64,000 bases of DNA from Escherichia coli. GTDB lineage: Bacteria; Pseudomonadota; Gammaproteobacteria; Enterobacterales; Enterobacteriaceae. Below the pieces are notes generated by a model. That model was not told the DNA's origin, made no database searches, and saw nothing but the letters and a program-made list of their open reading frames with translations. The DNA lies in NCBI GenBank assembly GCA_032372955.1, contig GCA_032372955.1_4725.1; one strand, written 5' to 3'. Both the position numbers and the translations under genes were made by a program. Positions 11,952 through 28,014 of this stretch are shown here, in pieces. How positions within the stretch are numbered: the stretch's first letter is position 1; the number at the start of each line of letters is the position of its first letter.

Positions 11952-14093
11952 TCAGAACGGTCGTTCTGTGCGTTTCCATAACAGCCCTGATGCTATCCTG
12001 CCAGGCATGGTGTCAGACAACCAGCTAGCAAAATTACCTTTGCTCCAGAAACTATCGATATCAGCCATGGTTTTATGCATGCGACGACTTAAATCAGGAA
12101 TCATGTAAACTTGTTCCGTAAGTGTCAATGCCGATAATACAGCAAGATAGTTGTTGAGCGGAGTATCGTCAGCAAGAAGATCGCTTAAGAAGCCACGAGG
12201 ATCCAATTTTGCGATCGATGCGGCCGTCGTTGTGATCGGCATTGCGACGATGGACGACAGGTCATAAACACTGAAGCTGACGTCGATACCCAACGGTAAT
12301 CGCTCGCGTGTTGATGGCACGTTCCCAACATGACGCGTCACAGTGATGTTATCGATAAGACCCATTTTAATCTGGACTTTACCGGGAATATAACACTCAC
12401 ACATGAATGGCATCCCGTAGGACGATTTACCGGTAGCCTGAGGCAAACCACCTGCGAGGATCGCTAAAAGAGGTACCATGAGGTTCGTAAAGATCGACCA
12501 GCGGTCCCCACTCCAGGAACGCAATTCCATCGTCAGATCGGCACGCGGTAGACTTACTGACGACCCAGAATAGAATTTCGGAATGTCTGCGAAGCCGGAA
12601 CCCATGAAGGCACCAAAAATACCATCCAGACCCATTCCGGAAATAGCACCATTAACGAGATCGGAACCGGCTTTGATGGCTTCGTCCAGTACAGCCCAAC
12701 CTGTATTACCACCGGAGAGGGTGAAACGACGTTCGATGTTCGCTTGCGCGCGGCTGTTCATCGTCTGTGCGATAGAACTTTCTGAAGCACTGTTTGAAAA
12801 CGTTTCGGTTACACTGGTGACAGAATCGACTCGAAAACTGATAAACTGAGCACCGTCAGCCAATTCAGCATCCATCAGATCAAGAAACGTAGCTTCTTCG
12901 GCCGCGTTCGTTTGACCGATTCCTTTGCTCTGTACGTTCGCGCCTCCAGCCGTGGATGCCGCTGTTGAAGCTTGTGTTGTCCCCGACGTTGAATTACCGA
13001 CATTGGCTGTTGTACCCTGACTCTGTGTTGACGTACCGCCGTCGGAGGTAGCCGCTGAGACATTGAAGTTGGCATCGGCATCTTTATTGGTGTACGAGGC
13101 CCTTCCGAATAAAAGGTCGTCCATCGTTTGTTTATTATCACCAGCTGTCGCACTGTAAACAGCAGACTTCTGTGTGTCGGCGAGATACTGCGTTAGCGTA
13201 CGACCGGTTACATCCGATGGAAACGCTCCGCTATCAAGTCGTTTATCAAGATCGTTCCAGAACTCCTCGTAAGACGAGTAATCGTTTTCCATCATGGATT
13301 GAATACGGCGTACCCATGCGTTTTGTATACGCTGACGACGTGTTGCAATCTGGTAGATATCGATCCCACCACCTTTCTTATAAATCCCCGGTAGCGTCTT
13401 AGAGGCGTAGTTGATGAATTCTTCAACGTTCTGACCACCGATTGAATATTGGTGGAGTACGGTACCCCCTTCTTCCACGTATCCTTTATCTTTACCAGCA
13501 CCGGCGATAAGACCCATGTTTATCGCTGTTTGGTTTACCAGCGTCTGGAAAGACGCCCAATACACGTGCATGGTTGGTACTTGATAGTAATATTGACTGG
13601 TAGGCTTACCCAGGAAATATCGACCAATACGTCCAACCATATACAAGTAAGGTAGAGGTGTGAGGTAAGAAAGAACGGTGGTATACGCTTTGGCTGCGTA
13701 ATAAAGAATACCGGGATCGCGACCGGTTTTAACCGTTACGGCGACATCGGCGTCGTAGAAATCGGTAAAGAAGATACTTGCGCCTGTAAAGCGAGGTTTA
13801 CCGAATCGTAAGGTAACGACTTCTTTAAAGCTGTTGATGCTTTCACTATAGCCTCGGCCCATGCCCGTTGATCCCGGCATAACCGCACGTCGCCGTTCTT
13901 TGATGTCGGCAAATTTCGTATATTGCGGTGGTGGGTTAAGCACCCAGTTCCCACCTAAGGTGGTATCATCGACGTTATCGTAGGAATACGGTGTATGTCT
14001 CGCTTTAATCATGTCGGCACTCAGCGTGCTGCTATCGCCTGGTAATAAAAACGCTTGTTTGGTAATTAGGGCGTTTTGAACAAGAATACCCAT
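11952..14093 (-). CDS. hypothetical protein, 713 aa, with central Ser/Thr/Gly-rich linker (possible virion protein)
   Basis: ATG with GAGGA SD (minus); immediately downstream of the giant lysozyme-domain gene on the same strand. Confidence 0.75.
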   Translation of the reverse strand: MGILVQNALITKQAFLLPGDSSTLSADMIKARHTPYSYDNVDDTTLGGNWVLNPPPQYTKFADIKERRRAVMPGSTGMGRGYSESINSFKEVVTLRFGKPRFTGASIFFTDFYDADVAVTVKTGRDPGILYYAAKAYTTVLSYLTPLPYLYMVGRIGRYFLGKPTSQYYYQVPTMHVYWASFQTLVNQTAINMGLIAGAGKDKGYVEEGGTVLHQYSIGGQNVEEFINYASKTLPGIYKKGGGIDIYQIATRRQRIQNAWVRRIQSMMENDYSSYEEFWNDLDKRLDSGAFPSDVTGRTLTQYLADTQKSAVYSATAGDNKQTMDDLLFGRASYTNKDADANFNVSAATSDGGTSTQSQGTTANVGNSTSGTTQASTAASTAGGANVQSKGIGQTNAAEEATFLDLMDAELADGAQFISFRVDSVTSVTETFSNSASESSIAQTMNSRAQANIERRFTLSGGNTGWAVLDEAIKAGSDLVNGAISGMGLDGIFGAFMGSGFADIPKFYSGSSVSLPRADLTMELRSWSGDRWSIFTNLMVPLLAILAGGLPQATGKSSYGMPFMCECYIPGKVQIKMGLIDNITVTRHVGNVPSTRERLPLGIDVSFSVYDLSSIVAMPITTTAASIAKLDPRGFLSDLLADDTPLNNYLAVLSALTLTEQVYMIPDLSRRMHKTMADIDSFWSKGNFASWLSDTMPGRIASGLLWKRTERPF

Positions 14094-14110: not shown

Positions 14111-14133
14111 GAGGGCGGGAATCTCCCGCCCTT
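14111..14133 (-). promoter_or_regulatory. intercistronic hairpin between giant gene and downstream gene
   Basis: gagggcggga-atc-tcccgccctt, 9 to 10 bp stem, 3-nt loop; sits between stop at 14143 and next RBS. Confidence 0.35.
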
Positions 14134-14142
14134 AACTAATGA

Positions 14143-17100
14143 CTACTGTGCGTACCTTGTCCGTGTTGGAGAGATTCCTTGCGGACGATTAGGTAGTGAC
14201 ATCGTCTGTTGTTGAGAAGGACCTGCAGAACCCTTACCGATAGAAGAACCCTTAACGGCTTGGATTAATTCCGAAATAAGTTCATTCGTTCTACCGGTGT
14301 TCTTTTCGATGTTCTGCTGTGTGGTCAGCTGCTGTCGGAGAATTTCACCTGCGCTACCGTAGAAGTTCTCACTTGCAACCGATGTTTGTGTCGCAGACTG
14401 CGCAACCTGTGCAGGCGTATTCGGAACCGATATCCCTCGATTTGCACCCGGGTTTGACGGCAAATCGCTAGGTGCTGGAGTTGATGTCGGTTGTCCTGCC
14501 GCGGCTTTTGCTGTTTCGAAACTTCCGGGCGTTGGTGATGCTTCTCCAGGTGCTGGGGCCGTCCCGGCAGCCGCAGACGGTTTAGATTCAGGGATAGTAG
14601 AAGATACCGGGGCTTGCGGATCGTTGCTTACAGCAGGTGTTCCGTTTGCCTCTTGTGCTGCTTCGTTCTTCACCTGTTCGGCGGTGGTCGGTCCTTCAGC
14701 TTGATCGTCTGATGTTGATCCCGATAACTCGTCCATCATTTTCTTCAGGGTGCCATTCTTAGCCGCCTGAATCCAATAAGCAGAACGTTGTTCAACATCA
14801 CGTAATCCGTTAAAACCACCGTTAACCAGATAACGAACTTGGCGCACATCACCCCGTTTTGCGGGATCGCGTAACACGTTACCTCGGTTGAGCCACCATG
14901 CAACACTACCTTCCGCCGCACCTTCCGGCGTTTCCAGGTATGTCGGATCGCTGACAAGATCCTTGTTCAAGGTCTTGGACAGACGAGCGTAGTTAGCTTT
15001 ACCGGTAACCTGAATGAAGCCACGTCCTAAATACTTCGCCCCGTCTCCTTTCTGTGTGTTTCCTAGATCTTTACGATTACCATACACACGTTCGAATACC
15101 GCTTCCGGCCCCATGCTGATCGTCTGTGCGGCATCCTGCACATCACGGAATTTGTAAGGGAAGACCTGTTTAAGACGCTCTGGTGTCTTATAGTTCCCCT
15201 CACGTACGTGAGTGTAGTTCCCCGATTCATGTTCGATGTTCGCAAGGAACATCGCCATTTCCATTGGATCGGTAATGCCGCGTTTTACAGCGGATTTAAC
15301 AAGCGCACGACGTCCAGCTTCAGGACCTGGTCCCATTGCAGGTTTCTGTAAGCCCATGTTAGGCAATCCAGTAAGATCGCCGGTTGACCCTAATCCCGCA
15401 TTGGAAGTAGCCGAAGCAGTAAAGCTGCTTGCACCTACCCTATTCCCATTGGGGTTGTAATTCGCTTCGGCGTTACTCATCCCACCGGTAATGCGTGATT
15501 TCTTCTGCCAGACACCGTCTTTCTTCTCGTACCCAGCCTGCTTCATCATCAGCTCTTGGATCTTCGATAATTTATCGGTATCCTCTTGCGATGCTTCCGC
15601 GTTCTTCTCACGAACCTTCTCTTTATCCGCATATTCTTTTAACAGATCGAGCTGGCTCTTTGTTGAACTGCTGGTGGTGTTAGCTTCAGTACCGGAGAAA
15701 CCACAACTATTCCAGGACCATACAGGCTGCAGTGTACCTTTCTCATCACGGTATTGCGTTGCGACAAGTGCTTCACCGATTTCCCAACGTTGGCTGTCTT
15801 TCAGGTTCTGTACCACGTCGGACAGAAGTCCTTGACCGCCCATGTCGCTAACGTGTTGGTAATAGGTTAAAAAGACGGGCAGGAAACGGTTATTCATCCA
15901 AGCAAACCAGATATCCTGATCCCGCTTGCTGTTAACGTCCCGTCCGAACTTCGTCGCGAATTTCTTGTAGAGCGCGACAAGATCGCCACCGTATTTAACA
16001 CCTTTACCTTCAGCGACAACGCCAGGTTCTACAGCGTCTTCGAGTTCCATCAGCACTTTTATCTGACTTAGCAACGGAACCTTAATACCGTACGCACGAA
16101 CACGGAGACTGGTGAGTTCATCGATGTATCCACCGGCAACCCATTTTCTACCACGACGGTCTACGCTTTCAATAACCGCGGTCGCGTCAAGCTTCTGTCG
16201 TCCTTTAGCGCCAGCGCTGTTGTAACGTTTATCGTTAAAACGTAACGACGCTTTCTGACCGCGTAATGCGTTAGGCGCAACGGATTTACGTTGTGTGTCA
16301 GACATCCGTGACCAATCAGCAATAGCCTCATCATGAGAGTATTGCTTAATCTGATTCTGGTACTCTTTCTTGATGGCTTCGAGTTGTTTCAGCATCAAGG
16401 TTTTGACGTCTTGACCAGCAATATAACGCGTCGCACCAGAAGAACCCAACGGGTTAGCTTCGACGTAATACGGACCATCAGGACTATCGGAAGGCCAGAT
16501 AAACGCTTCCGACCATTTCACTTTGTTCTCACCGTTCGGATATTTATCCATTTCCATGTATTTCTTCTCGTCCGGCATATGCTCTTTCCAGAGTTTGTAC
16601 GCACGAGCGAAAACAGGAATAAAACGATGCAGATACCAGCGTTTCCATTCGTTCATTCGGTCGGAATCTTCCAGGGACAATTCCCAGATTTCGAGAATCT
16701 TTTCAGAATCCGCTTTCGGATCGAATCCGATGGTATCCCCGGTCATGACCACATGGTCGGTGAGGTATGTTTCTGTCGCAAGCAGCTTCTTATTGAAGTC
16801 TTTATCGTCCCCTTTTGCACCGTATGCAATAAGACGGAGCTTCTGCATCGGGTCAGGCTTCTCAGCGAAATGCTGATAGATCTTCCATCCAGCATAAGCA
16901 GCCAACGCACCACCTGCAATAGCAAGCCCAACAGGTGAGATAAGGAATGCACCTAATCCCGATAACCCACCAACAGCGTTCAATGCGGCCCCGCCCGCCA
17001 TTAACGCACCACGTCCTAACCATCCTGCTGCACTTAGTCCTCCCTTGACTAGCGCGCCGGTTCCACTAATGAGACCCTTGCCTAACAACCCGGTTAACGA

Positions 17101-20100
17101 TGCACCGCCGCTTAACACCGCCCCAAGACCGCCTAGAATTTTTCCAAGCGGACTCGCCATGAGTCGTTTACCTAATGCGGTATCGCCGAGCATATCGAAA
17201 AGGCTTCCGAGTAATCCCCGTTTCTTCTCCTTTTCTTCTCCTTTATTGGAATCTTTGCCGGTGTCGTCCTTACCGTTTTCCTTGGCTGCACGCTTACGTT
17301 TCAGGTCTTCCAACGATCCTTCTCGAACACCATCGCCATTCCAATCGCGGTAATCCTTATCGCCACCCGGCATACGCTGGTCAAGAAGCTGGTAAATAGC
17401 ATCGAGGCGATCTACCATGCTCGACGTTGTTCCCACCAGTAATGCGTCAGGTGATTGGAAATTTAATCCCATCCGTCGTAGACCGTTAACGGTTTTACCT
17501 GGAAGGGCTTTAAGGATGTCCTTTGTCTTACGTAGCAGCGTTAACGGTAACGTAAAAGCTTTTACGCCGAAGTTGATGAGCTTTTCTTTTAAACGACGAA
17601 TCGCTTTACCGTATTTATCGACAAGTCCTTTCTGCATGTCGGCAAGCGTAAGTACGACGTTACCTTGTGCATCAACAACATCACCATCGATGTCTTCAAG
17701 ATTTTTGATGACTTGTCCATCAGAGCGACGGAAATACCCGCCAGCTGCTAACACCATGGACAACAGACGAGGCGTTGATTCTCCCTTGACGTAAACGTCG
17801 GGTGTTTTGTCAAGCTGTTTGTAGATCTCGACCGCACCGCGTTTTAACATCCGTGGCAGACTTAATACCGTCGTGATTCCATTAAGACCTTCACGTGCCC
17901 ACGCCTTAAGTCCTGAATTCTCAAAGGCACGACCAGCGCGAGTGACCAACCCTTTCTCGATATCCTCGTTGCTGATTACGATGTTTCCATCCGCATCAAC
18001 GAGTGGGCCTTTGATATCCTTCATCCGTTTTACGGCTTTTCCTGTCGCTTCGTCGAAGTATAACCCCTGACGAAGTTTGGCAGCCAGTATGCGTGGTTGG
18101 GATTCCCCTTTAACGTAAATGTCAAACGGAACCTGATCAACCTTGGATAATGCGCCGAACACAAAACGGTTGAAATTGATAATGCGTCGGCCGGAATTTA
18201 CCAAACTACCCAACGTGCGTTCTGCACCCCAGCGTGCGCCTTTAACACCCAAACGTGCGGTATTTTTAATTCCTTTCCAGAGGAGATTACGGCCACCTTT
18301 AAAGAGGTTGCGTGCACCGAGTTTTTGTTTGGCACGATCGATAAATGAAATGGGTGCTGTACCTTCAGGTACATCTTCACCATCCAGTGAAACGTTATTA
18401 GACCAGTCTTTCTCAGAAATGGCTTTCAGCAACGCAAGCATTTCAGTACGTTGTTCGGATGCTTCAGATAACGCTTCGAGATAAAGCTCTTGCCACGCTC
18501 GATTCTGTTCTTCAAGCGATGTGGTGATAACACCCGTGTCGTTCCACCATTTATCATAGCCGATGTTTTCATCAACGGTTACTGTTCCAACAGCCTTGCG
18601 ATCGATGTTCGGCAGACCCGCATTTTGGACGTCATCAACTGATGGTTTTGCGTCACGATAACCTAGCGCCAGCGCTCTTGTTTCCTGAGCGGTTAATCGC
18701 GTATTAACATCACTACGTTCAGCGTACTCCGGTCGGTCGATGTATCGATCGATTTCAGAGAAATACCGATCGTGATTAACCGAGTAGCTTCCGTCGCTAT
18801 TTCTCGTTACGATACCGATACGTTCCAGATATTGGACGTCACCAGTACGTTTCAGTAGGTTAAGGTTACGCTGGATATCCGGTTGTAACGATTTCAGATT
18901 TCCGTAGCGAAGATCCGCTCGGTTACGTTCCGTGTAATATTGCCCGCGGTTTCCAATGACCTGATGACGTTCGCCCTTATCGTTGACATCATCACGAATA
19001 CCGTAACGGTCACGAAAGTACGTGGAAAGTTCCTTAATAGCGTCGCGGTCAATACTACGATCGAAGTTGCTTTCATCCGTAAAACGAGCCGGGTCGAATG
19101 CGATGTTTGCGTCGCTATCTCGTGCCAGCTGCTTAGCCAGTGCCTTCCTGGCTTTTTCCGATAATTGTTTATCGGGATCGACGACCGAGATAACCTCATT
19201 GAAACGGCTGGCGTAATAACCAAATGAACGTTTGTTAAACAGGGTGTCGTTGACGCTTTGTTCGCGCGTGCGCTGAGCCACGAATTGCCCGCTGATGCCG
19301 TCATAGACCTCGTAGTCGGGATCGCTGTTTCCCGTGCGGATGCCTTCACTGCTTTTCAGAATGCGAGCAAGAAAACCAGGAATAACTTCATTGATGCTGC
19401 GGTAAGTTAAACCGTCGAAAGACGTCTGCTCCGCCAATGTTTCAGCGGTGTCGTTCATCACACGGAAGTTACGTCCGCTGTCCATGTTGAACGCCCAACG
19501 CCCTGCGCCGCGTAACAATTGCTTGTAAAACGGATCGTTAAGATTGAATTCGTTTTTACGAATATCTTCCTGGAGCAGTTTACCGAGATTACGCGTCGTG
19601 TAAGCGGCAGCCTCACCACCTTGATCCACGGCTTTTAACGCGCTAGCGAATTTAGCGTTGGGGTGACGTTTTGCTAAATCGCGTAACGCCATCCTGCCTT
19701 TATTAGCCATCCATGGTGCGACAGTTGAGCCAATGAACTGACCCAACATCTTTCCTTGCATTTCCTTAATATCGCCTTCTGACCCCATCCCATCCATCAT
19801 GGACATCGAGTCACGTGCTTCGTTTAAACCGTATAACGCATCGTTTGCGCCAGACACGACGCCTTTTAAAGCACCTAATGCGTTGGTGGCAAGGTTCTTC
19901 TTAACATCGGCAAAGAAACGGTTCTCGAAAGAACTCATCGCATCTAACGCGTTACCAAAGAAACGTTGGTACGCGCTACGGCGGAATTCTTCCGACATTT
20001 TTGCTTTAGCTGCATCAGGTAAAGCCGTATTCTTCTGGATGTTTTGTAATAAACCGATATAGACTTCGGCTAACTTTTTATGCTGATCAAAACTTGCACG

Positions 20101-20808
20101 TTGAATCGCTAAGGAACGATATTTCAGTTCCAGGCTTTTACGCATGTAGCGCGCGGCGAATTCATTGTTGAAACCAACCATCTTGGCGACGCCTTCTTGC
20201 ATCGCACTCATTTGTTTGTTGGTTACAGCGTACCGTTTGTCAGCGATATCGTCACGGATACTCTCTTTCGCTTGCTGCTCAGCAAACTGATCCGCGTTTT
20301 GGTTTGCTGATTCGCCTAATGCCTCGGCAACCTTGCGGGCGATCTCATCGTCCCCCGCGCTCGCCATGCGTTGACGAAGGGTTTCTTCAGCATGTTTACG
20401 TTCGTCTTCTTCCTTGGCTTCTCGCTCCCACTGCTCGAGAATTTTCTTCGAGAAATCGGGCATGCTCGCGCGGTATTTCTTGGTCAGTTGTGCAGCTAAC
20501 CGTTTTGAGCTTTGGACCTTAGGAAGAACGTCACGAACGGCTTCATTGTATAGTTCCTTCGTGGATCCGACGGCGGAATCGATAAGATCCATACCGTCGC
20601 TGTAGCCCTTAGGCAATGCGTTTCTGGCGATCTCCTTCATTCTTTCGTAGGAAGTAAGATCTTCAGCAGCACCTTTAACCGCGCCTATCGCAAAGCGTGT
20701 TATCGGTTTACGATCGTCTTTGGGTTCGTTAAAATCGAGATCCAGGGAGAAGTCATCATCCCAGTTATCCCAATTATCATCACCCTCAACACGGGTTTTA
20801 TCTACCAT
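14143..20808 (-). CDS. giant protein (2221 aa) with C-terminal GH19 chitinase/lysozyme-like domain and Gly/Ala-rich hydrophobic segment
   Basis: First ATG 20808 has GGAGG SD (ORF-track TTG at 20925 is upstream); GH19-like signature (EHESGNY ... LGNTQKGDGAKYLGRGFIQVTG ... YW) encoded about 14790..15270; glycine-zipper hydrophobic run mid-protein; architecture recalls the phiKZ gp181 virion lysin. Confidence 0.8.
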   Translation of the reverse strand: MVDKTRVEGDDNWDNWDDDFSLDLDFNEPKDDRKPITRFAIGAVKGAAEDLTSYERMKEIARNALPKGYSDGMDLIDSAVGSTKELYNEAVRDVLPKVQSSKRLAAQLTKKYRASMPDFSKKILEQWEREAKEEDERKHAEETLRQRMASAGDDEIARKVAEALGESANQNADQFAEQQAKESIRDDIADKRYAVTNKQMSAMQEGVAKMVGFNNEFAARYMRKSLELKYRSLAIQRASFDQHKKLAEVYIGLLQNIQKNTALPDAAKAKMSEEFRRSAYQRFFGNALDAMSSFENRFFADVKKNLATNALGALKGVVSGANDALYGLNEARDSMSMMDGMGSEGDIKEMQGKMLGQFIGSTVAPWMANKGRMALRDLAKRHPNAKFASALKAVDQGGEAAAYTTRNLGKLLQEDIRKNEFNLNDPFYKQLLRGAGRWAFNMDSGRNFRVMNDTAETLAEQTSFDGLTYRSINEVIPGFLARILKSSEGIRTGNSDPDYEVYDGISGQFVAQRTREQSVNDTLFNKRSFGYYASRFNEVISVVDPDKQLSEKARKALAKQLARDSDANIAFDPARFTDESNFDRSIDRDAIKELSTYFRDRYGIRDDVNDKGERHQVIGNRGQYYTERNRADLRYGNLKSLQPDIQRNLNLLKRTGDVQYLERIGIVTRNSDGSYSVNHDRYFSEIDRYIDRPEYAERSDVNTRLTAQETRALALGYRDAKPSVDDVQNAGLPNIDRKAVGTVTVDENIGYDKWWNDTGVITTSLEEQNRAWQELYLEALSEASEQRTEMLALLKAISEKDWSNNVSLDGEDVPEGTAPISFIDRAKQKLGARNLFKGGRNLLWKGIKNTARLGVKGARWGAERTLGSLVNSGRRIINFNRFVFGALSKVDQVPFDIYVKGESQPRILAAKLRQGLYFDEATGKAVKRMKDIKGPLVDADGNIVISNEDIEKGLVTRAGRAFENSGLKAWAREGLNGITTVLSLPRMLKRGAVEIYKQLDKTPDVYVKGESTPRLLSMVLAAGGYFRRSDGQVIKNLEDIDGDVVDAQGNVVLTLADMQKGLVDKYGKAIRRLKEKLINFGVKAFTLPLTLLRKTKDILKALPGKTVNGLRRMGLNFQSPDALLVGTTSSMVDRLDAIYQLLDQRMPGGDKDYRDWNGDGVREGSLEDLKRKRAAKENGKDDTGKDSNKGEEKEKKRGLLGSLFDMLGDTALGKRLMASPLGKILGGLGAVLSGGASLTGLLGKGLISGTGALVKGGLSAAGWLGRGALMAGGAALNAVGGLSGLGAFLISPVGLAIAGGALAAYAGWKIYQHFAEKPDPMQKLRLIAYGAKGDDKDFNKKLLATETYLTDHVVMTGDTIGFDPKADSEKILEIWELSLEDSDRMNEWKRWYLHRFIPVFARAYKLWKEHMPDEKKYMEMDKYPNGENKVKWSEAFIWPSDSPDGPYYVEANPLGSSGATRYIAGQDVKTLMLKQLEAIKKEYQNQIKQYSHDEAIADWSRMSDTQRKSVAPNALRGQKASLRFNDKRYNSAGAKGRQKLDATAVIESVDRRGRKWVAGGYIDELTSLRVRAYGIKVPLLSQIKVLMELEDAVEPGVVAEGKGVKYGGDLVALYKKFATKFGRDVNSKRDQDIWFAWMNNRFLPVFLTYYQHVSDMGGQGLLSDVVQNLKDSQRWEIGEALVATQYRDEKGTLQPVWSWNSCGFSGTEANTTSSSTKSQLDLLKEYADKEKVREKNAEASQEDTDKLSKIQELMMKQAGYEKKDGVWQKKSRITGGMSNAEANYNPNGNRVGASSFTASATSNAGLGSTGDLTGLPNMGLQKPAMGPGPEAGRRALVKSAVKRGITDPMEMAMFLANIEHESGNYTHVREGNYKTPERLKQVFPYKFRDVQDAAQTISMGPEAVFERVYGNRKDLGNTQKGDGAKYLGRGFIQVTGKANYARLSKTLNKDLVSDPTYLETPEGAAEGSVAWWLNRGNVLRDPAKRGDVRQVRYLVNGGFNGLRDVEQRSAYWIQAAKNGTLKKMMDELSGSTSDDQAEGPTTAEQVKNEAAQEANGTPAVSNDPQAPVSSTIPESKPSAAAGTAPAPGEASPTPGSFETAKAAAGQPTSTPAPSDLPSNPGANRGISVPNTPAQVAQSATQTSVASENFYGSAGEILRQQLTTQQNIEKNTGRTNELISELIQAVKGSSIGKGSAGPSQQQTMSLPNRPQGISPTRTRYAQ

Positions 20809-21053
20809 GTATACCTCCAGTTCGATACGTTCCCATGTTACGTTGGAACGTGATGCACGAAGTTTACCTTCGGCATTGATAATGTTGAAGCGTAACTTCA
20901 CACATCGCCCGCTTGATTTTATCAAGCAGGTACGTAACCTAATAACTTCCTCGCCTCAAGCAAGGAAGCGATGGGTGACGCCATCACCCATTACGTCTCT
21001 CGTGTGTTCAGATGATACCGCCGCAGCCGGTGGTGGTAAAGAGGAGTGTCTCC

Positions 21054-22520: not shown

Positions 22521-23002
22521 AAGTCCTTGAAAAATAAAGACTTTTTTCAATGGAAGTTGTCCGGTATTCCCGAAAGGGAGTGCTTGAAAAACCTACGAAT
22601 TGCTGGGAACCCCTAAAGCTCAACGACCCATGAGGTGCCGAAAGGCAGAAACAACAGTTGAGATGCACTACCTCCCACGGAGGCTTAGGCTGAAAGAAAA
22701 GCCGCGTAAGCGGTGCTAAGGTGCGCGATAATGGGCAATCAGCAGCCTGGTTGTTGCGTAGTAATACGGCATTCTTGAAAACAAGAATGTGAAACAACGC
22801 AGGTTCAACGACTAAGGGATTTACCACCCTGTAGAGGACAAGCGTCTTCGAAGTGTAGGTTACCGTAACAGGTGTTGCTGAAGTATTCTTCAGCGAAGCT
22901 GACGGTTTGATATAGTCTCCTCTTGCATGAAAGTGCAAGCAGCCTGTGATGTACGTATCCATGCAGGCGGTCTCAGCGTAGCGACCTGAGGCGAAGACAA
23001 GG
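22521..23002 (+). ncRNA. group I intron 1 (in beta-prime gene), 482 nt, no internal ORF
   Basis: P AATTGCTGGGAA 22598-22609; Q CAATCAGCAGCC 22736-22747; R GTTCAACGACTAAGGG 22803-22818; S GATATAGTC 22909-22917 (GACTA/TAGTC forms P7); GNRA hairpins; exon ends in U, intron ends in G; boundaries inferred, about +/-10 nt. Confidence 0.7.
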
Positions 23003-23185: not shown

Positions 23186-26100
23186 ATGGCAAAACTTAAA
23201 TACCTTGATTACTACCGACAGTTTGGTGTCAGACGCTACCAAGAGCTACTATCACCAAGATTACGTTTAGTGCAGCTACTGCAGCTGCCGCGTTATGCTG
23301 TCTATCATTACACCGCAACGGATCCTTCATTGATAGGTCCTCCAGAAAACGAATACATGCTGAGCAAAGAAAGTGCTCAACTATGGATTTCGTTTGCTGA
23401 TGATCTCGCAACCAAACAGGGTGCACCCCGACGTGATCAACGATTCCAACTCCCACGAGCGAAATTGGATTATCGTGCATCACATCGTCGTTTTCGTTTG
23501 GTTACCGATCTAAGCGCGGTGGAGAAAAACATCAACGCTCAGATCGTTGCTAACTACGCGCATCTTAACCACATGTACATTTATCGTCCAACGCTCACCC
23601 GTTGGTATGATGAATGGTTCAACGTACGTAAAACAATTTGGTCGAAAGCCAACGAAATCGCACAGCAAAGCGATCGTCAACACTTTTTGTTGTTCCGTAT
23701 ACCGTCAAAATTGCCGAAGATTTCGTTGATGCGTACCACGCAACAGGCACCGACCCGTAACAACCTCATGAATTTCGCCACGCCGGAGGAGCTGTCGTTC
23801 TTTGACTTCTTCCGCTGGTTGGGCGTCGATCGTGAGAACAGCACGATGGCTTCGTTAGACAGGGCCATGCTGGATAAGCTTAACGTCGTATTTACAGACG
23901 GTGTGTACTTCTTTACGCTGAATCTCGGCCTGCTGGAGGAATGGCGTACCGGACTTGTGAAGGAAGGGGAAGAACTCGATAAAACGACGCTTGAAACCTT
24001 CCAACGACGTTGGATGATGGCGGTAACACGTCTGTGGTCGCAGAGTGCGAATGAAGAAGAACAGAAACAAGAAGAGGAACAGGTTCTTCGTCAAGAGCGA
24101 GATATTCTTGCAGCCAGCCCGGATGCGGAGTACGATGATCGTGACGTCGTGCTTCCTAACGGTGAGGATCTGGCTACCGTTCTCGATCCCGATGAGTTAG
24201 AAGCGGAGTTGGTCGGTGGGTCGGATGAAGACGATGATGCTGATGCATGGAACGCCATCGTAGAACGCTCGTTCGAAGATGTCCGTGAAGTACCTGGGGT
24301 AGAAGTACAACCGGATTTCCAACCTGATGAAGATCAGGACATTACCGACGATCTCTTCGAAGTCGTTACCGACGATACCGAAGAAGAAAAGGTTGATGTC
24401 TTTGACGCGGCAACGTTACCAAAAACGCATGGCGAATATATTCAGTCGCTATCGGATGCGGTGTTGGTACGCGCGAGTGATCTGGCGGATGCGGGTCAGT
24501 TAAGCGGTGTCCAGTATAAAGCAGCGATGCGTAACGCCGACGCCATTCACGAAATCGAAGCACCCGACGGTTCTGGATTAACACTTGCTGAGTATGTCGA
24601 AGTTAAACCAAAAGCCGCAAAATTAGCTCCCGCAAAGGTTATGCCGGAAGCGGATGTTATCGTCGACAAGAGCTTATGTAAATCGACGCTCGCGGTGTGG
24701 GATAAACATTACGTCGAACACGTAATGCAAAAGGACATCGCAGCTGCCGTTGTTGCGGTACAGCAGGCGGGTTACCCTGTTACGGGATATAAAGTTGAAG
24801 ATGTTGTTGACGTGATGGGGGACTATCAAGTCATCACGATTAAACTGGCCCCTGTAGGCGGTGTCCCGACCACGTTCCCGGTGATGTTGCCGAAGGTTCG
24901 TAAGGACGGCATTTATGTCGTTAACGGTATCAAGTACCGGATGCGTAAACAACGCGTCGATAAACCTATTAGAAAGGTATCGTCATCTGAAGTCGCATTG
25001 AGTACCGCCTACGGTAAGGTGTTTGTTAAACGTTCAGAGCGCGTCGTTAATAACGCCGGTCGTTGGTTAACACGCCAACTTACGGCGATGTATTACGATA
25101 AGTCCTCGCCCTTAACAACGTTAAAACGCGGTAACGTCTTTGATCCGGCTGTCAAAGTTCCGTATTACTTCGCTGTGCTTGCACGCAACTATACCCAAAT
25201 CCAATTTGCTGATTGGGATATACGTCTCGATATAAAAACATTGCCGGAGTTCATCGGGGAAGATCGGTTCAACGAACAGTTAGCCGAAGGACTCCTGACG
25301 TTCGCGCGTAACACGTTGGGTGAATTCTTAGCAATCGATAAACGCAATCAGCTCTATATCTGTCAGTCGGGACAAACACCAACACCTGTAGGGACGTTCC
25401 CTGATTTCTTCGGCATTAATGCGGCTAAGATGCCGATCGAAGCCGCCGATCTTGAATTCATGGGTGTACGTATTCCGGTCGGTGTTGTTCTAAGTTATCT
25501 GGGTGGGCTTACCCCGTTATTAGAACATCTTAAAGCGAACTATCGTACGGTACCTCGCGGCTCTCGTATGGGGTTAGCACCCGATGAATTCGCAGTGAGC
25601 TTTGACGACGAAAGTCTGATCTTCAGTAAAGACGATCGCATGACGACGTTGTTGCTGGGTGGGTTTAACGAATACCGTAACTACATTGGTTACGCTCGCG
25701 GTGCTTTCGACAATCGAGATATCTATTTTAACGTTGTTGATGGTGCTGGACTTAAGGTTCGCCATTTGCGCGAACTTGAACTCATGGAGCGTCTTTTCAT
25801 CGATCCGGTAAGCCGTACGTTGTTGCAGAACATGGGAGAACCTACCGATTTCGCCATGTTGTTACTGCGTGCTGTTGAACTGCTTCTGGATGATTGGGCA
25901 CCTAACACGAACGATGTGAACTACCAACGTTTTAAAACGTACGATAAGTTCGCTGAATTGGTGTATAAGGACCTGGTTGGCGCTATTCGTCAGAATGAGA
26001 ACAGCAGTCAAGGGAACCGCCAGAAAATCTCAATCAGTCCGGTAAGCGTCTGGAACCAAATTCTCGACGATAGCGCTTCCATCGTGATCGATGAAACCAA

Positions 26101-26392
26101 CCCGATGCTGGATATCAAGCAGGGTGAAGAAGCAACGATGACCGGTATCGGGGGTCGTTCAAAGACATCGCTTCGACGCGCACGTGATCGCGAATACGAC
26201 AAGTCGGACATTGGTGTTGTATCCGAAGGTACGAAGGATAGTGGGGACGTAGGTATTTCTGCTTACCTCGCACCTAACGCAAACATTGTGTCTGTATACG
26301 GTGAAACGAAACCTTACGACGAGAAAACGGATGGTAGCTCGTCAATAATGAGTACATCAGCACTTGCAGTACCTGCTGCTGATAGAGATGAT
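23186..26392 (+). CDS. multisubunit RNA polymerase beta fragment, exon 1
   Basis: ATG with GGAG SD; C-terminal part has beta-like TGIGGRSKTSLRRARDREYD ... VVSEGTKDSGDVGISAYLAPNANI; about 500 aa N-terminal extension; in-frame TAA at 26393 is proposed to be intronic. Confidence 0.75.
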
Positions 26393-26874
26393 TAACGCTT
26401 TTAATAGCAGGGTCCGTCTATGTGGCGACATGTAGATGAGATTCACTGAATTGCGAAGACATCCGTCGCTGTTATCGACCAAAACGGATTCTGAAAAGAA
26501 AGACGGTACGGTATAAAAACAGATAATAGCTTAAGGACAATCCGCAGCCAAGTACCTAAGGATCGCTGTGAAGCGTTCTAAGGTAAAGGTTCAACGACTA
26601 AGGGATTCATCCCCCTGTACCCCTCGAGTGAGGCATTCTCCTTGGATAAGAGAATGGTGCTGGATGCGCTGGGAAGAAGTGAACTCTCGTTGAGGTGCTG
26701 AAGAAGCACCGTTTGAAACGAGATGTGATATAGTCTGCTCTTGCGTGAGAGCGCAAGCGGGAGGTGGTGCGCCTATCATCGCCTCCGGGATAAGACTAAC
26801 GACCTTATCTGAACAATCTAATCTCAGTCTTATTTCGGTAACGGTATGTTAATACTGAATAAGAACTAAATTCG
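26393..26874 (+). ncRNA. group I intron 2 (in beta gene), 482 nt, no internal ORF
   Basis: P GAATTGCGAAGA 26448-26459; Q CAATCCGCAGCC 26538-26549; R GTTCAACGACTAAGGG 26589-26604; S GATATAGTC 26727-26735; 3' hairpin TAAGACTAACGACCTTATCTGAAC; 5' splice site uncertain within 26365-26393. Confidence 0.65.
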
Positions 26875-28014
26875 CCCAAGAGATTGGTATTTATAGGTAT
26901 CCAACACAACCGCATGATTGCTGCTGAAGGTTACGATGTACAGCCGTGGCGTACGGGTGGTGAGACTGTTATCGCGCATCGTGTTGGTAAGCTCTTCGCA
27001 GCAGCTGCCCAAGGCGATGGTGTTGTGAAGAAGGTCACTAAAACTGCGCTGACGATACAGTACGACGACCCAGAGTTAGGGGAAGAGGTTTTCCAGCTCG
27101 GTACGATAATCGGGAAAGGACCAGGTAAGTATTATCCTCACGATCTCATTACCGATTATAAAGTCGGGGATCGCGTTAAGGATCAGGATGTGGTGGTTTT
27201 CCACCGCCTTTATTTTAAACGCGATTGGTGGAACCCAGGTCAGGTTGTTTGGCGCGCAGGTGTTCTGTCTCTTGTCGGTATTCTGGATATTCCAGAGACC
27301 CACGAGGACAGCTCGTATATCTTCGACAATCTTGCTGATCGTCTCGTAACACCATCGATTAAGAGTCGTACGCTTATCGTTGACGCTCATCTCAACATTC
27401 GTGGTCTCGTGAAAATCGGTGATCATGTTGAACCGCGAACGATTCTTGCAACACTGGAAGAACCGATTGCAACCGATCTGAGTGATGAGAGTCAGGAAGC
27501 CGTTGAAGCATTACGTCGTATGAGTCAGTATAACCCACGTGCTGATGTTCATGGTGAAGTTGTACAGATCGATGTACTGTACCGCGCTCAGATTGAAGAC
27601 ATGAGTGAAACCATGGCAGCGCTCGTCGGTGAGGCAGATAAAGCACGAGCTAAACGCGTCAAGGAACTGAAACTCAACGAAGCAACAACGGGGCGTATCA
27701 ATAACAGTAACGTGAGAATAGACGGTAATCCGTTAGGCGAGAACCAGATCGCCATCCGTATTTTCATGCGTTACGACCTTGGTGCGGGGATGGGTGATAA
27801 AGGTACCTTCGCAGCTCAAGCGAAATCCGTTGTCTCTTCCGTGGGTCATGGTGTGAACAAAACCGAAGACGGGCACACCCTTGATGCTATCTTCAGTGGC
27901 ACCAGTATCGCTAACCGTATCATCGGTTCACCGGAAGTGGTTGGGACTGTGAATCTTGGTCTCCTCTACGCAACGGAACGAGCTGTTGATATTTACTTTA
28001 ACGACGCTAAATAA
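26875..28014 (+). CDS. RNA polymerase beta fragment, exon 2
   Basis: Begins PKRLVFIGIQHNRM (fork-loop-like) and contains GDKGTFAAQAKSVV ... EDGHTLDAIFSGTSIANRIIGSPE (beta GDK...GNKG / SRMN-like region); only a TTG with no usable SD in this frame, so independent translation is unlikely. Confidence 0.7.
   Translation, partial: PKRLVFIGIQHNRMIAAEGYDVQPWRTGGETVIAHRVGKLFAAAAQGDGVVKKVTKTALTIQYDDPELGEEVFQLGTIIGKGPGKYYPHDLITDYKVGDRVKDQDVVVFHRLYFKRDWWNPGQVVWRAGVLSLVGILDIPETHEDSSYIFDNLADRLVTPSIKSRTLIVDAHLNIRGLVKIGDHVEPRTILATLEEPIATDLSDESQEAVEALRRMSQYNPRADVHGEVVQIDVLYRAQIEDMSETMAALVGEADKARAKRVKELKLNEATTGRINNSNVRIDGNPLGENQIAIRIFMRYDLGAGMGDKGTFAAQAKSVVSSVGHGVNKTEDGHTLDAIFSGTSIANRIIGSPEVVGTVNLGLLYATERAVDIYFNDAK

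What the first reader, a model, noticed from the sequence alone, without database searches (positions are those of the whole stretch)
14143..20808. Giant 2221-aa protein with C-terminal GH19-type lysozyme domain and internal glycine-zipper segment
A single gene occupies 6.7 kb. The region encoded about 14790..15270 matches the GH19 chitinase/lysozyme signature (EHESGNY, GRGFIQVTG), and the middle of the protein has a long Gly/Ala-rich hydrophobic run. The architecture recalls giant virion-associated peptidoglycan hydrolases of jumbo phages, though the catalytic family here is GH19 rather than the lytic transglycosylase I recall for phiKZ gp181. It is also a candidate tape-measure or ejection protein.
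Basis: partly seen in the sequence, partly recalled or inferred. Interest (0 to 1): 0.55.

Follow-up and report, generated by a model that had tools for sequence, protein, structure and literature searches.

The report
Giant phage tail lysozyme protein
This 6.7-kb gene is the already-annotated giant tail protein of a Goslar-like E. coli jumbo phage, the counterpart of phiKZ gp181: probably a tail tape measure that carries a cell-wall-cutting enzyme and a membrane-inserting segment, so it is real but ordinary.

Summary
A minus-strand gene (ATG 20808, stop 14143) encodes 2221 aa. It has a Gly/Ala/Leu-rich hydrophobic run at aa 1205-1311 and a GH19-type lysozyme domain at aa 1821-2031, with both catalytic glutamates kept.

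The window comes from a close relative of Escherichia phage Goslar, a nucleus-forming jumbo phage. The protein is 98.3% identical to Goslar gp204 (Goslar_00232, annotated "putative chitinase" or "tail fiber protein"). It is a true homologue of phiKZ gp181 over aa 35-1730.

The family is large: 1376 representatives at 50% identity. Members share the N-terminal scaffold and the central hydrophobic segment, but the wall-degrading domain near the C-terminus varies. GH19 is common there, so it is not an exception to phiKZ's SLT.

Published mass spectrometry finds Goslar gp204 in virions at about 3-8 copies. It sits next to the tail-tube initiator gene and is absent from the fully assigned spike and hub. 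phiKZ orf181 is essential and is called the likely tape measure.

Best reading (about 0.68): a tape-measure-like protein in the tail lumen that is expelled on contraction, cuts peptidoglycan and inserts into the inner membrane.

Novelty: already known. Interest is low.

The parts
14143..20808 (-). CDS of the giant protein (2221 aa plus stop). It is the orthologue of Goslar gp204 / Goslar_00232 and a homologue of phiKZ gp181.
   Evidence: ORF list and translation. 96.6% nucleotide and 98.3% amino-acid identity to Goslar. 177 synonymous versus 37 non-synonymous codon differences.
20814..20818 (-). Shine-Dalgarno-like GGAGG, 5 nt upstream of ATG 20808.
   Evidence: Sequence read directly. M1 is invariant across 40 homologues.
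19429..20706 (-). aa 35-460: long helices, including one predicted helix of 143 residues. This is the tape-measure-like part.
   Evidence: AlphaFold2 model m082a2d283ad0 gives 82% helix over aa 1-460, at low to medium confidence. The region lies within the PHROG 3201 match.
18664..19413 (-). aa 466-715: a confidently predicted globular alpha/beta unit. It contains the family-invariant IPGFLxR / RTG motifs. Its function is unknown.
   Evidence: pLDDT 80-94. Invariant P477 and L480, with nearly invariant I476, G478, T492 and G493. No PDB fold match; best Foldseek E is 0.58.
17509..18144 (-). Internal tandem duplication A (aa 889-1000 and 998-1100): two small beta-rich units, each with a 'YVKGES...DxxGNxV' motif.
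   Evidence: BLASTP between the two copies gives 39% identity, E 5e-23. Both copies are conserved in the family consensus. pLDDT is about 85.
16876..17196 (-). aa 1205-1311: Gly/Ala/Leu-rich hydrophobic segment. It ends in a 42-aa stretch with no charged residue (aa 1267-1308), which is the putative membrane-inserting module.
   Evidence: Kyte-Doolittle windows reach 1.9; the aa 1215-1311 core is 27% Gly, and the uncharged run is. A hydrophobic stretch of at least 40 aa is present mid-protein in 103 of 120 family members.
15541..16851 (-). Internal duplication B (aa 1320-1486 and 1564-1756): two helical domains with a conserved R..YG ... W..RF.PV motif. Their function is unknown.
   Evidence: BLASTP between the copies gives 28% identity, E 2e-5. 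Nearly invariant residues recur in both copies across 31 sequences. pLDDT is 80-96. No convincing PDB fold match.
14716..15348 (-). aa 1821-2031: GH19-type lysozyme (peptidoglycan glycosidase) domain, with E1861, E1870 and T1935.
14146..14715 (-). aa 2032-2221: low-complexity P/S/T/A/Q-rich tail that ends in a family-conserved helix and terminal motif.
   Evidence: Composition. The C-terminal consensus is retained in family alignments. A Goslar virion peptide, AAAGQPTSTPAPSDLPSNPGANR, maps here.
14113..14131 (-). Hairpin GGGCGGGA-GAT-TCCCGCCC followed by TCTTCTT, just after the stop codon. It may be a terminator or attenuator ahead of the next gene.
   Evidence: Sequence read directly. The simple terminator scan did not list it.
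11952..14093 (-). Downstream neighbour in the same orientation: the orthologue of Goslar gp203 / phiKZ gp182, the tail-tube initiator protein of the baseplate hub.
   Evidence: Synteny with Goslar and nine other phages. PHROG 3181 matches at E 6e-172. The structural assignment comes from the Goslar cryo-EM preprint.

Best explanation
The gene encodes the giant tail-internal protein of a Goslar-like chimallivirus, orthologous to Goslar gp204 and homologous to phiKZ gp181.

**Proposed mechanism.**
1. A few copies (3 or 6) are built into the tail, starting on the baseplate hub next to the tube-initiator protein encoded by the neighbouring gene.
2. The largely helical N-terminal ~1200 residues lie extended in the tube lumen and act as a tape measure or scaffold.
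3. When the sheath contracts and the spike breaches the outer membrane, the protein is expelled ahead of the DNA.
4. The GH19 lysozyme domain cuts glycan strands locally to open the peptidoglycan.
5. The Gly/Ala-rich hydrophobic segment inserts into the inner membrane and helps form the conduit for DNA and co-injected proteins.

**Shown:** the sequence, the family, the GH19 fold with intact catalytic residues, the hydrophobic segment, the conserved gene order, and virion presence at low copy for the 98%-identical Goslar protein.

**Inferred:** the location in the lumen, the ruler function, the ejection, the membrane insertion, and the bond that is cleaved.
For: **Identity.** The protein is 98.3% identical to Goslar gp204. 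PHROG 3201 matches at E 1.5e-291. tblastn aligns it to phiKZ gp181 over aa 35-1730.

**Family size and variable cargo.** The N-terminal 1200 aa find 1376 representatives at 50% identity with E <= 1e-10, nearly all 2000-2500 aa long. The wall-degrading domain varies among relatives: GH19, SLT, VanY, M23, CHAP and PF18013. That pattern fits a delivered enzymatic cargo on a constant scaffold.

**Hydrophobic segment.** It is present here and in 103 of 120 relatives.

**Gene context.** The gene lies directly upstream of the tube-initiator gene (Goslar gp203) in the same orientation. This order is conserved in the Goslar record and eight of the nine other phages whose flanks were fetched; in LAh10 the adjacent downstream gene differs.

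**Published Goslar data (bioRxiv 10.64898/2026.04.21.720040).**
- gp204 gave 34 peptides at 24.5% coverage, with an estimate of 3.4 / 5.1 / 8.0 copies per virion, and is noted as 'Tail protein'.
- Peptides map to aa 393-406, aa 564-575 and aa 2102-2124.
- All hub, spike and inner-baseplate density was assigned to other proteins. gp204 must therefore lie somewhere unresolved, such as the tube lumen.

**Structure and geometry.** The N-terminal model is 64% helix, and 82% helix over aa 1-460, with single helices up to 143 residues. The Goslar tube has 46 layers at 39.16 A rise, which is 1801 A, or about 1200 residues at 1.5 A per residue. The hydrophobic segment starts at aa 1205.
Against: - No structure shows the protein in the tube lumen. 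Neither the Goslar nor the phiKZ virion study models or mentions it.
- No Pfam or NCBIfam tape-measure family matches.
- The full chain as a helix would be 333 nm, nearly twice the tail length, so at most part of it can act as a ruler.
- The N-terminal 1200 aa are not purely helical. They contain a globular unit and two beta-rich repeats.
- The only two-phage comparison available goes the wrong way. phiKZ has a shorter tube (43 layers against 46), yet its protein is slightly longer and its landmarks lie about 40 residues later.
- The agreement between 1200 residues and the tube length may be coincidence.
- GH19-domain peptides that should fall within the stored part of the peptide table were not found there. 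Presence of that domain itself in virions is therefore supported only indirectly, by a peptide lying C-terminal to it.
- No enzymatic or membrane assay exists for a GH19 member of this family.
Confidence: 0.68

Rival explanations
1. The protein is a component of the needle-like cell-puncturing device at the centre of the baseplate. This is the older view of phiKZ gp181, in which a trimer analogous to T4 gp5 carries the lysozyme on the spike itself.
For: A review lists phiKZ gp181 as 'needle-like cell-puncturing device, putative trimer', citing Briers 2008 and Fokine. The low copy number of about 3-8 is compatible with a trimer. The gene is adjacent to a hub gene.
Against: In the 3.9 A Goslar baseplate map, all density of the hub, spike and inner baseplate was assigned to gp13, gp48, gp203, gp62 and the wedge proteins, with no gp204. 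The predicted structure contains no beta-helical spike or OB-fold. A 107-aa hydrophobic segment and more than 400 residues of long helix are not features of a spike.
Confidence: 0.1
2. The protein is an internal ejection protein stored in the capsid or at the portal. After ejection it forms a trans-envelope channel, like T7 gp16, which also carries a lytic transglycosylase domain. It would not be a tail-lumen tape measure.
For: It combines a large size, a wall-degrading domain and a membrane-active segment at low copy number. Chimalliviruses inject many virion proteins.
Against: The gene sits with baseplate and tail genes, not with the head or inner-body cluster. The Goslar authors label it a tail protein. 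phiKZ gp181 is annotated as tail-associated and is described as the likely tape measure. Contractile-tail phages need a tube-lumen protein, and no other candidate was named in either virion study.
Confidence: 0.12
3. The protein is a tail fiber or receptor-binding protein, as the RefSeq and PHROG labels state.
For: The RefSeq product name for many orthologues and the PHROG 3201 description both read 'tail fiber protein'.
Against: There is no fibrous beta-structure, no receptor-binding or carbohydrate-binding domain and no fiber Pfam family. The lysozyme domain and hydrophobic segment do not fit a fiber. In Goslar the filaments are attributed to DUF7941 proteins. The label looks like a propagated automatic annotation.
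Confidence: 0.02
4. The protein is a lysis-stage endolysin or a genuine chitinase, as the GenBank labels 'putative chitinase' and 'putative endolysin' state.
For: The GH19 fold is shared with phage endolysins and with chitinases.
Confidence: 0.03

Closest known systems
Escherichia phage Goslar gp204 (HOV27_gp204, YP_009820915.1 = Goslar_00232, QBO64023.1)
   Same: 98.3% amino-acid identity over all 2221 residues with no indels. The neighbours are the same, and so are all the domains. This is the same protein in a sister phage.
   Different: There are 37 substitutions. The GenBank CDS starts 31 codons further upstream at a GTG, whereas the RBS and the homologue N-termini favour the ATG used here. 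The flanking vRNAP genes differ in intron and ORF content.
Pseudomonas phage phiKZ gp181 (structural peptidoglycan hydrolase; Briers et al. 2008)
   Same: It is a homologous scaffold over aa 35-1730 (24.5% identity). It has a similar length (2237 aa), a central Gly-rich hydrophobic segment, the duplicated B domains, a lytic domain at about aa 1850-2000, and the same gene order next to gp182. It is essential and is called the likely tape measure.
   Different: Its catalytic domain is SLT (PF01464), a lytic transglycosylase fold and chemistry, not GH19. Muralytic activity has been shown experimentally only for the phiKZ SLT domain, not for any GH19 member.
GH19-type phage endolysins (for example PDB 9eoi, 8p8e KTN6 gp46, 4ok7 SPN1S)
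   Different: Those are free proteins of about 200 aa that act from within at lysis. Here the domain is embedded at aa 1821-2031 of a 2221-aa virion protein and would act from outside at entry.
Tape measure proteins that carry lytic domains and hydrophobic segments (for example T5 Pb2 and the phiIPLA35 TMP)
   Same: These are long, helix-rich, low-copy tail proteins with a muralytic domain towards the C-terminus and a membrane-active region. The reviews read list such cases. The comparison rests on established knowledge, not on a test made here.
   Different: There is no detectable sequence relationship. This protein is much larger than its tail requires, belongs to a contractile tail, and has extra conserved globular modules (the aa 466-715 unit and repeats A and B) of unknown function.

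Membership tests
phiKZ gp181-like giant tail protein family (PHROG 3201) | Homologous N-terminal scaffold of about 1200 aa | tested here: met
   PHROG 3201 matches at E 1.5e-291 over aa 11-1174. tblastn aligns to phiKZ gp181. 1376 representatives at E <= 1e-10.
phiKZ gp181-like giant tail protein family (PHROG 3201) | Conserved gene order: a divergent vRNAP gene upstream and the tube-initiator gene (gp182/gp203) downstream | tested here: met
   This arrangement holds in the window, in the Goslar record and in eight of the nine other phages fetched; in LAh10 the adjacent downstream gene differs.
phiKZ gp181-like giant tail protein family (PHROG 3201) | Central Gly-rich hydrophobic segment followed by duplicated B domains | tested here: met
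   Present at aa 1205-1311. 103 of 120 relatives have such a segment. The B-domain motifs are nearly invariant.
phiKZ gp181-like giant tail protein family (PHROG 3201) | Peptidoglycan-degrading domain near the C-terminus | tested here: met
   A GH19 domain lies at aa 1821-2031. The domain family differs from phiKZ (SLT), but GH19 is shared with RAY, PhiEaH1, RSL2, LAh10, pTD1 and Proteus phage 10.
phiKZ gp181-like giant tail protein family (PHROG 3201) | Component of the virion | not testable with these tools
   Shown by published LC-MS/MS only for the 98.3%-identical Goslar protein: 34 peptides and about 3-8 copies.
Glycoside hydrolase family 19 (lysozyme/chitinase fold) | Match to the curated Pfam model PF00182 at its gathering score | tested here: not met
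   18.1 bits against a cut-off of 25.5, covering only aa 1922-1960. The plant-chitinase-centred model is a poor fit. Orthologues in RAY, RSL2, pTD1 and Proteus phage 10 do pass.
Glycoside hydrolase family 19 (lysozyme/chitinase fold) | Significant sequence similarity to solved GH19 enzymes across the whole domain | tested here: met
   9eoi at E 8.5e-23 over aa 1836-2014; 7r6s, 9ms6, 4ok7 and 8p8e at E 2e-21 to 4e-16.
Glycoside hydrolase family 19 (lysozyme/chitinase fold) | GH19 three-dimensional fold | tested here: met
Glycoside hydrolase family 19 (lysozyme/chitinase fold) | Catalytic acid and base glutamates, plus the Ser/Thr of the GRGxxQ[LV][ST] motif | tested here: met
   E1861 (in the HES motif), E1870 and T1935 are conserved in the family GH19 domains that cover those columns. 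Both glutamates are matched in the printed PDB alignments. Their assignment as the catalytic residues comes from general knowledge of GH19, not from a test here.
Glycoside hydrolase family 19 (lysozyme/chitinase fold) | Hydrolysis of the glycan strand | not testable with these tools
   This needs a zymogram or muropeptide analysis of aa 1821-2031.
Tail tape measure protein (functional class) | Membership of a curated tape-measure sequence family | tested here: not met
   No Pfam or NCBIfam tape-measure model matched.
Tail tape measure protein (functional class) | Long, predominantly helical chain encoded among tail and baseplate genes | tested here: met
   64% helix over aa 1-1200 and 82% over aa 1-460, with helices up to 143 residues, at modest confidence. 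The gene is adjacent to the tube-initiator gene.
Tail tape measure protein (functional class) | Length proportional to tail length | tested here: inconclusive
   The 1204 residues before the hydrophobic segment span 181 nm at 1.5 A per residue, against a 180-nm tube. The whole chain, however, would span 333 nm, and phiKZ (43 layers) has a slightly longer protein than Goslar (46 layers).
Tail tape measure protein (functional class) | Located in the tube lumen at 3 or 6 copies | not testable with these tools
   The copy estimate of 3.4-8.0 is compatible. The position is unresolved in both published virion structures.
Tail fiber protein (RefSeq/PHROG label) | Fibrous beta-rich shaft with a distal receptor-binding domain | tested here: not met
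   The predicted structure consists of helices, small globular units and a lysozyme. There are no fiber domains.

The most novel reading that the evidence does not exclude
[quoted passage not shown] The family-wide hydrophobic segment of about 100 aa and the two conserved B domains that follow it have no known fold relatives. They could be the phage factor that, after ejection, does more than make a pore: it could remodel the inner membrane and seed or anchor the EPI vesicle at the tail tip. Nothing I found excludes this. Equally, nothing supports it beyond the presence of a conserved, unusually long membrane-active module in an ejected-type protein that appears to be shared across this phage group.
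Probability: 0.1. Interest if true: 0.7.

Novelty: already known. Interest (0 to 1): 0.2.

Why it matters
For the genome scan, this gene needs no further attention as a discovery. It is an annotated, proteomically confirmed structural gene of a well-studied phage group, and the GH19-for-SLT difference is ordinary cargo swapping within the family.

Its remaining value is practical and contextual:
- The public product names ('tail fiber protein', 'putative chitinase', 'putative endolysin') are misleading and could be corrected.
- The GH19 module is a candidate virion-derived lysin against Enterobacteria.
- The protein is the largest unmodelled component of chimallivirus tails. Its position, its processing and the role of its membrane-active module in entry are still open experimentally.

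Tried and rejected
- **Pfam and NCBIfam on the full protein.** Only a sub-threshold GH19 hit appeared, with no tape-measure or fiber family. The GH19 call therefore had to rest on PDB and PHROG matches and on the fold.
- **Searching the Goslar cryo-EM preprint.** Terms gp232, tape measure, chitinase and lysozyme returned nothing. The paper uses RefSeq numbering (gp204) and discusses the protein only in Table S4.
- **The phiKZ structural atlas.** It never mentions gp181. The chimallivirus core-genome preprint returned nothing for my terms. Several 'gp181' hits referred to unrelated phages.
- **Fold search of the N-terminal 1200-aa model.** No match better than E 0.58.
- **Self-BLAST of the whole protein.** It did not report the internal repeats. 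Pairwise comparison of the segments did.
- **Full-length MAFFT of 130 giant proteins.** It timed out. I used phmmer domain coordinates instead.
- **Strict glycine-zipper test.** GxxxG is not enriched over shuffles.
- **Ruler proportionality, phiKZ against Goslar.** It does not support a simple length rule.
- **Looking for GH19-domain tryptic peptides in the stored part of Table S4.** None were found, although flanking regions are represented. This is uninformative at 24.5% coverage.
- **Promoter and terminator scan.** Fewer hits than in shuffles, so it was uninformative.

Full report
**1. The observation**

The minus strand carries one ORF open from 20925 to 14143. Starting from ATG 20808 it encodes 2221 aa plus a stop codon.

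The ATG is preceded by GGAGG at 20818-20814. Its methionine is an invariant column in an alignment with 40 homologues. I therefore prefer this start to the GTG 31 codons upstream that the GenBank Goslar record uses.

The middle of the protein holds a hydrophobic Gly/Ala/Leu-rich segment at aa 1205-1311. Its aa 1215-1311 core is 27% Gly and 45% Gly+Ala. It contains the longest run without a charged residue in the protein (42 aa, aa 1267-1308), and Kyte-Doolittle windows reach 1.9. Strict GxxxG motifs are not enriched: 3 observed against 6.8 +/- 1.9 in shuffles. 'Glycine zipper' is thus only a loose label.

**2. What it is**

*Source of the window.* The gene is 96.6% identical in DNA and 98.3% identical in protein to Escherichia phage vB_EcoM_Goslar. 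The Goslar gene is annotated Goslar_00232 'putative chitinase' in GenBank and HOV27_gp204 'tail fiber protein' in RefSeq. Between the two phages there are 177 synonymous and 37 non-synonymous codon differences and no indels. This is the pattern of a protein under purifying selection.

*Family.* PHROG 3201 matches aa 11-1174 at E 1.5e-291, and an endolysin PHROG matches aa 1836-2058. tblastn aligns aa 35-1730 to phiKZ gp181 and to the equivalent giant genes of Erwinia, Ralstonia, Aeromonas, Vibrio, Serratia, Proteus, Klebsiella and Salmonella jumbo phages.

*Gene order.* In every phage I fetched, the gene lies divergent from a virion RNA polymerase gene. In all but Aeromonas phage LAh10 it also lies directly upstream of the gp182/gp203 homologue.

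*Family size.* A sensitive search with the N-terminal 1200 aa finds 1376 cluster representatives at E <= 1e-10, almost all 2000-2500 aa long.

**3. Anatomy**

| Region (aa) | Feature |
|---|---|
| 35-460 | Very long helices, one of 143 residues, at low to medium confidence |
| 466-715 | Confidently predicted globular unit holding the most invariant motifs of the family |
| 889-1100 | Tandem duplication of a small beta-rich unit (39% identity, E 5e-23) |
| ~1155 | Conserved DxNGDGxRxGS loop |
| 1205-1311 | Hydrophobic segment |
| 1320-1486 and 1564-1756 | Second duplicated domain (28% identity, E 2e-5), with motifs nearly invariant across the family |
| 1821-2031 | GH19 domain |
| 2032-2221 | Low-complexity tail ending in a conserved helix |

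A hydrophobic stretch of at least 40 aa occurs mid-protein in 103 of 120 relatives.

**4. The lysozyme domain**

Other evidence settles the assignment:
- phmmer against PDB sequences finds GH19-type endolysins over the whole domain: 9eoi at E 8.5e-23, then 7r6s, 9ms6, 4ok7 and 8p8e.
- The AlphaFold2 model of aa 1312-2060 has pLDDT above 90 across the domain.
- The two glutamates spaced by eight residues (E1861, E1870) and the threonine of GRGFIQVTG (T1935) are conserved in the GH19 domains of the family that cover those columns.

**5. GH19 versus SLT**

Pfam finds SLT at aa 1885-1978 of phiKZ gp181 and in Serratia phage 2050HW. It finds GH19 at the equivalent place in RAY, PhiEaH1, RSL2, LAh10, pTD1 and Proteus phage 10.

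In the wider family the precomputed domains also include VanY, M23, CHAP and PF18013, sometimes two in one protein. The scaffold is constant and the wall-degrading cargo is interchangeable. GH19 is common rather than exceptional.

**6. Evidence on function from the literature**

*Older view.* A review summarises Briers et al. 2008: phiKZ gp181 is a structural peptidoglycan hydrolase, thought at the time to be part of a needle-like puncturing device.

*Goslar structure.* A 2026 cryo-EM preprint on Goslar assigns all hub, spike and inner-baseplate density to gp13, gp48, gp203, gp62 and the wedge proteins. It identifies gp203, this gene's neighbour, as the tube initiator. It does not model gp204.

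Peptides from aa 393-406, aa 564-575 and aa 2102-2124 are in the stored part of the table. GH19-domain peptides I looked for are not.

*phiKZ structure.* The phiKZ structural atlas does not mention gp181.

**7. Mechanism**

The best-supported reading is a tape-measure-like protein in the tail lumen. It is assembled on the hub next to the tube initiator and expelled on contraction. The GH19 domain then opens the peptidoglycan, and the hydrophobic segment enters the inner membrane.

*Support.* Gene context, low copy number, helical N-terminal part, exclusion from the resolved hub and spike, essentiality in phiKZ, and the swappable lytic cargo.

*Suggestive but weak.* The Goslar tube has 46 layers at 39.16 A rise, which is 1801 A or about 1200 residues at 1.5 A per residue. 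The hydrophobic segment begins at aa 1205.

*Against a simple ruler.* The whole chain would span 333 nm. The N-terminal part includes globular units. phiKZ has a shorter tube, yet a slightly longer protein with later landmarks.

Location in the lumen, ejection, membrane insertion and bond specificity are all inferred.

**8. Rivals**

- A spike component is contradicted by the fully assigned Goslar hub and spike.
- A capsid-stored ejection protein like T7 gp16 remains possible, but gene context and the published tail assignments disfavour it.
- 'Tail fiber' and 'chitinase/endolysin' are annotation artefacts, judged by domain content and virion copy number.

**9. Novelty**

The gene, its product, its family, its GH19 domain and its virion association are all already on record. 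The tape-measure idea is also in print for the phiKZ homologue. The finding is correct and well read, but it is not new.

The open questions are experimental: where the protein sits, what the conserved unknown modules do, and whether the membrane-active module has a role in forming the early-infection vesicle of these phages. I rate that last idea at about 10%.

Noticed in passing
window 22535-22939 (+) and 26391-26757 (+): Two group I introns (Rfam RF00028, 64.1 and 52.8 bits) lie in the divergent virion RNA polymerase genes. The second is absent from Goslar. It splits the vRNAP beta gene (PHROG 3148) into ORFs 23186-26395 and 26884-28014.
   Followed up: partly
window 22523-22559, compared with L001 20383-21950: Goslar carries about 1570 bp here, including Goslar_00230 ('weakly similar to phiKZ ORF179'), which the window phage lacks. 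This is a presence/absence difference of an ORF next to the first intron.
   Followed up: no
window 20809-20925 (-): The GenBank and RefSeq Goslar CDS (2252 aa) starts at a GTG 31 codons upstream of the ATG, which has a strong GGAGG. Homologue N-termini align to the ATG (M1 is invariant). The deposited start is probably too long.
   Followed up: partly
window 17305-17346 (-), aa ~1155-1168: A family-conserved 'DxNGDGxRxGS' loop (DWNGDGVREGSLED), resembling a DxDxDG calcium-binding motif, sits about 40 residues before the hydrophobic segment. No EF-hand Pfam hit was found. One structural neighbour of the GH19 domain (8xcl, T6SS effector TseP) is named an EF-hand protein.
   Followed up: no
window 15541-16851 (-), aa 1320-1756: A duplicated helical domain, with motifs R..YG and W..RF.PV, is nearly invariant across the giant-protein family and confidently predicted. 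It has no convincing match to solved structures.
   Followed up: partly
proteins P0006, P0061, P0062, P0067: Family members are deposited under bacterial names (Caballeronia and Paraburkholderia; one is even labelled 'cell pole-organizing protein PopZ') on contigs of 143-492 kb. These are probably jumbo-phage genomes sitting in bacterial assemblies.
   Followed up: no
protein P0001: The 99%-identical cluster has 615 member sequences from assemblies of public sequencing runs. Goslar-like phages, or Goslar itself, therefore turn up in many data sets.
   Followed up: no
window 14113-14131 (-): An 8-bp GC-rich hairpin followed by TCTTCTT lies between the giant gene's stop codon and the tube-initiator gene's ATG. 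The Goslar record does not annotate it and the simple terminator scan missed it.
   Followed up: no
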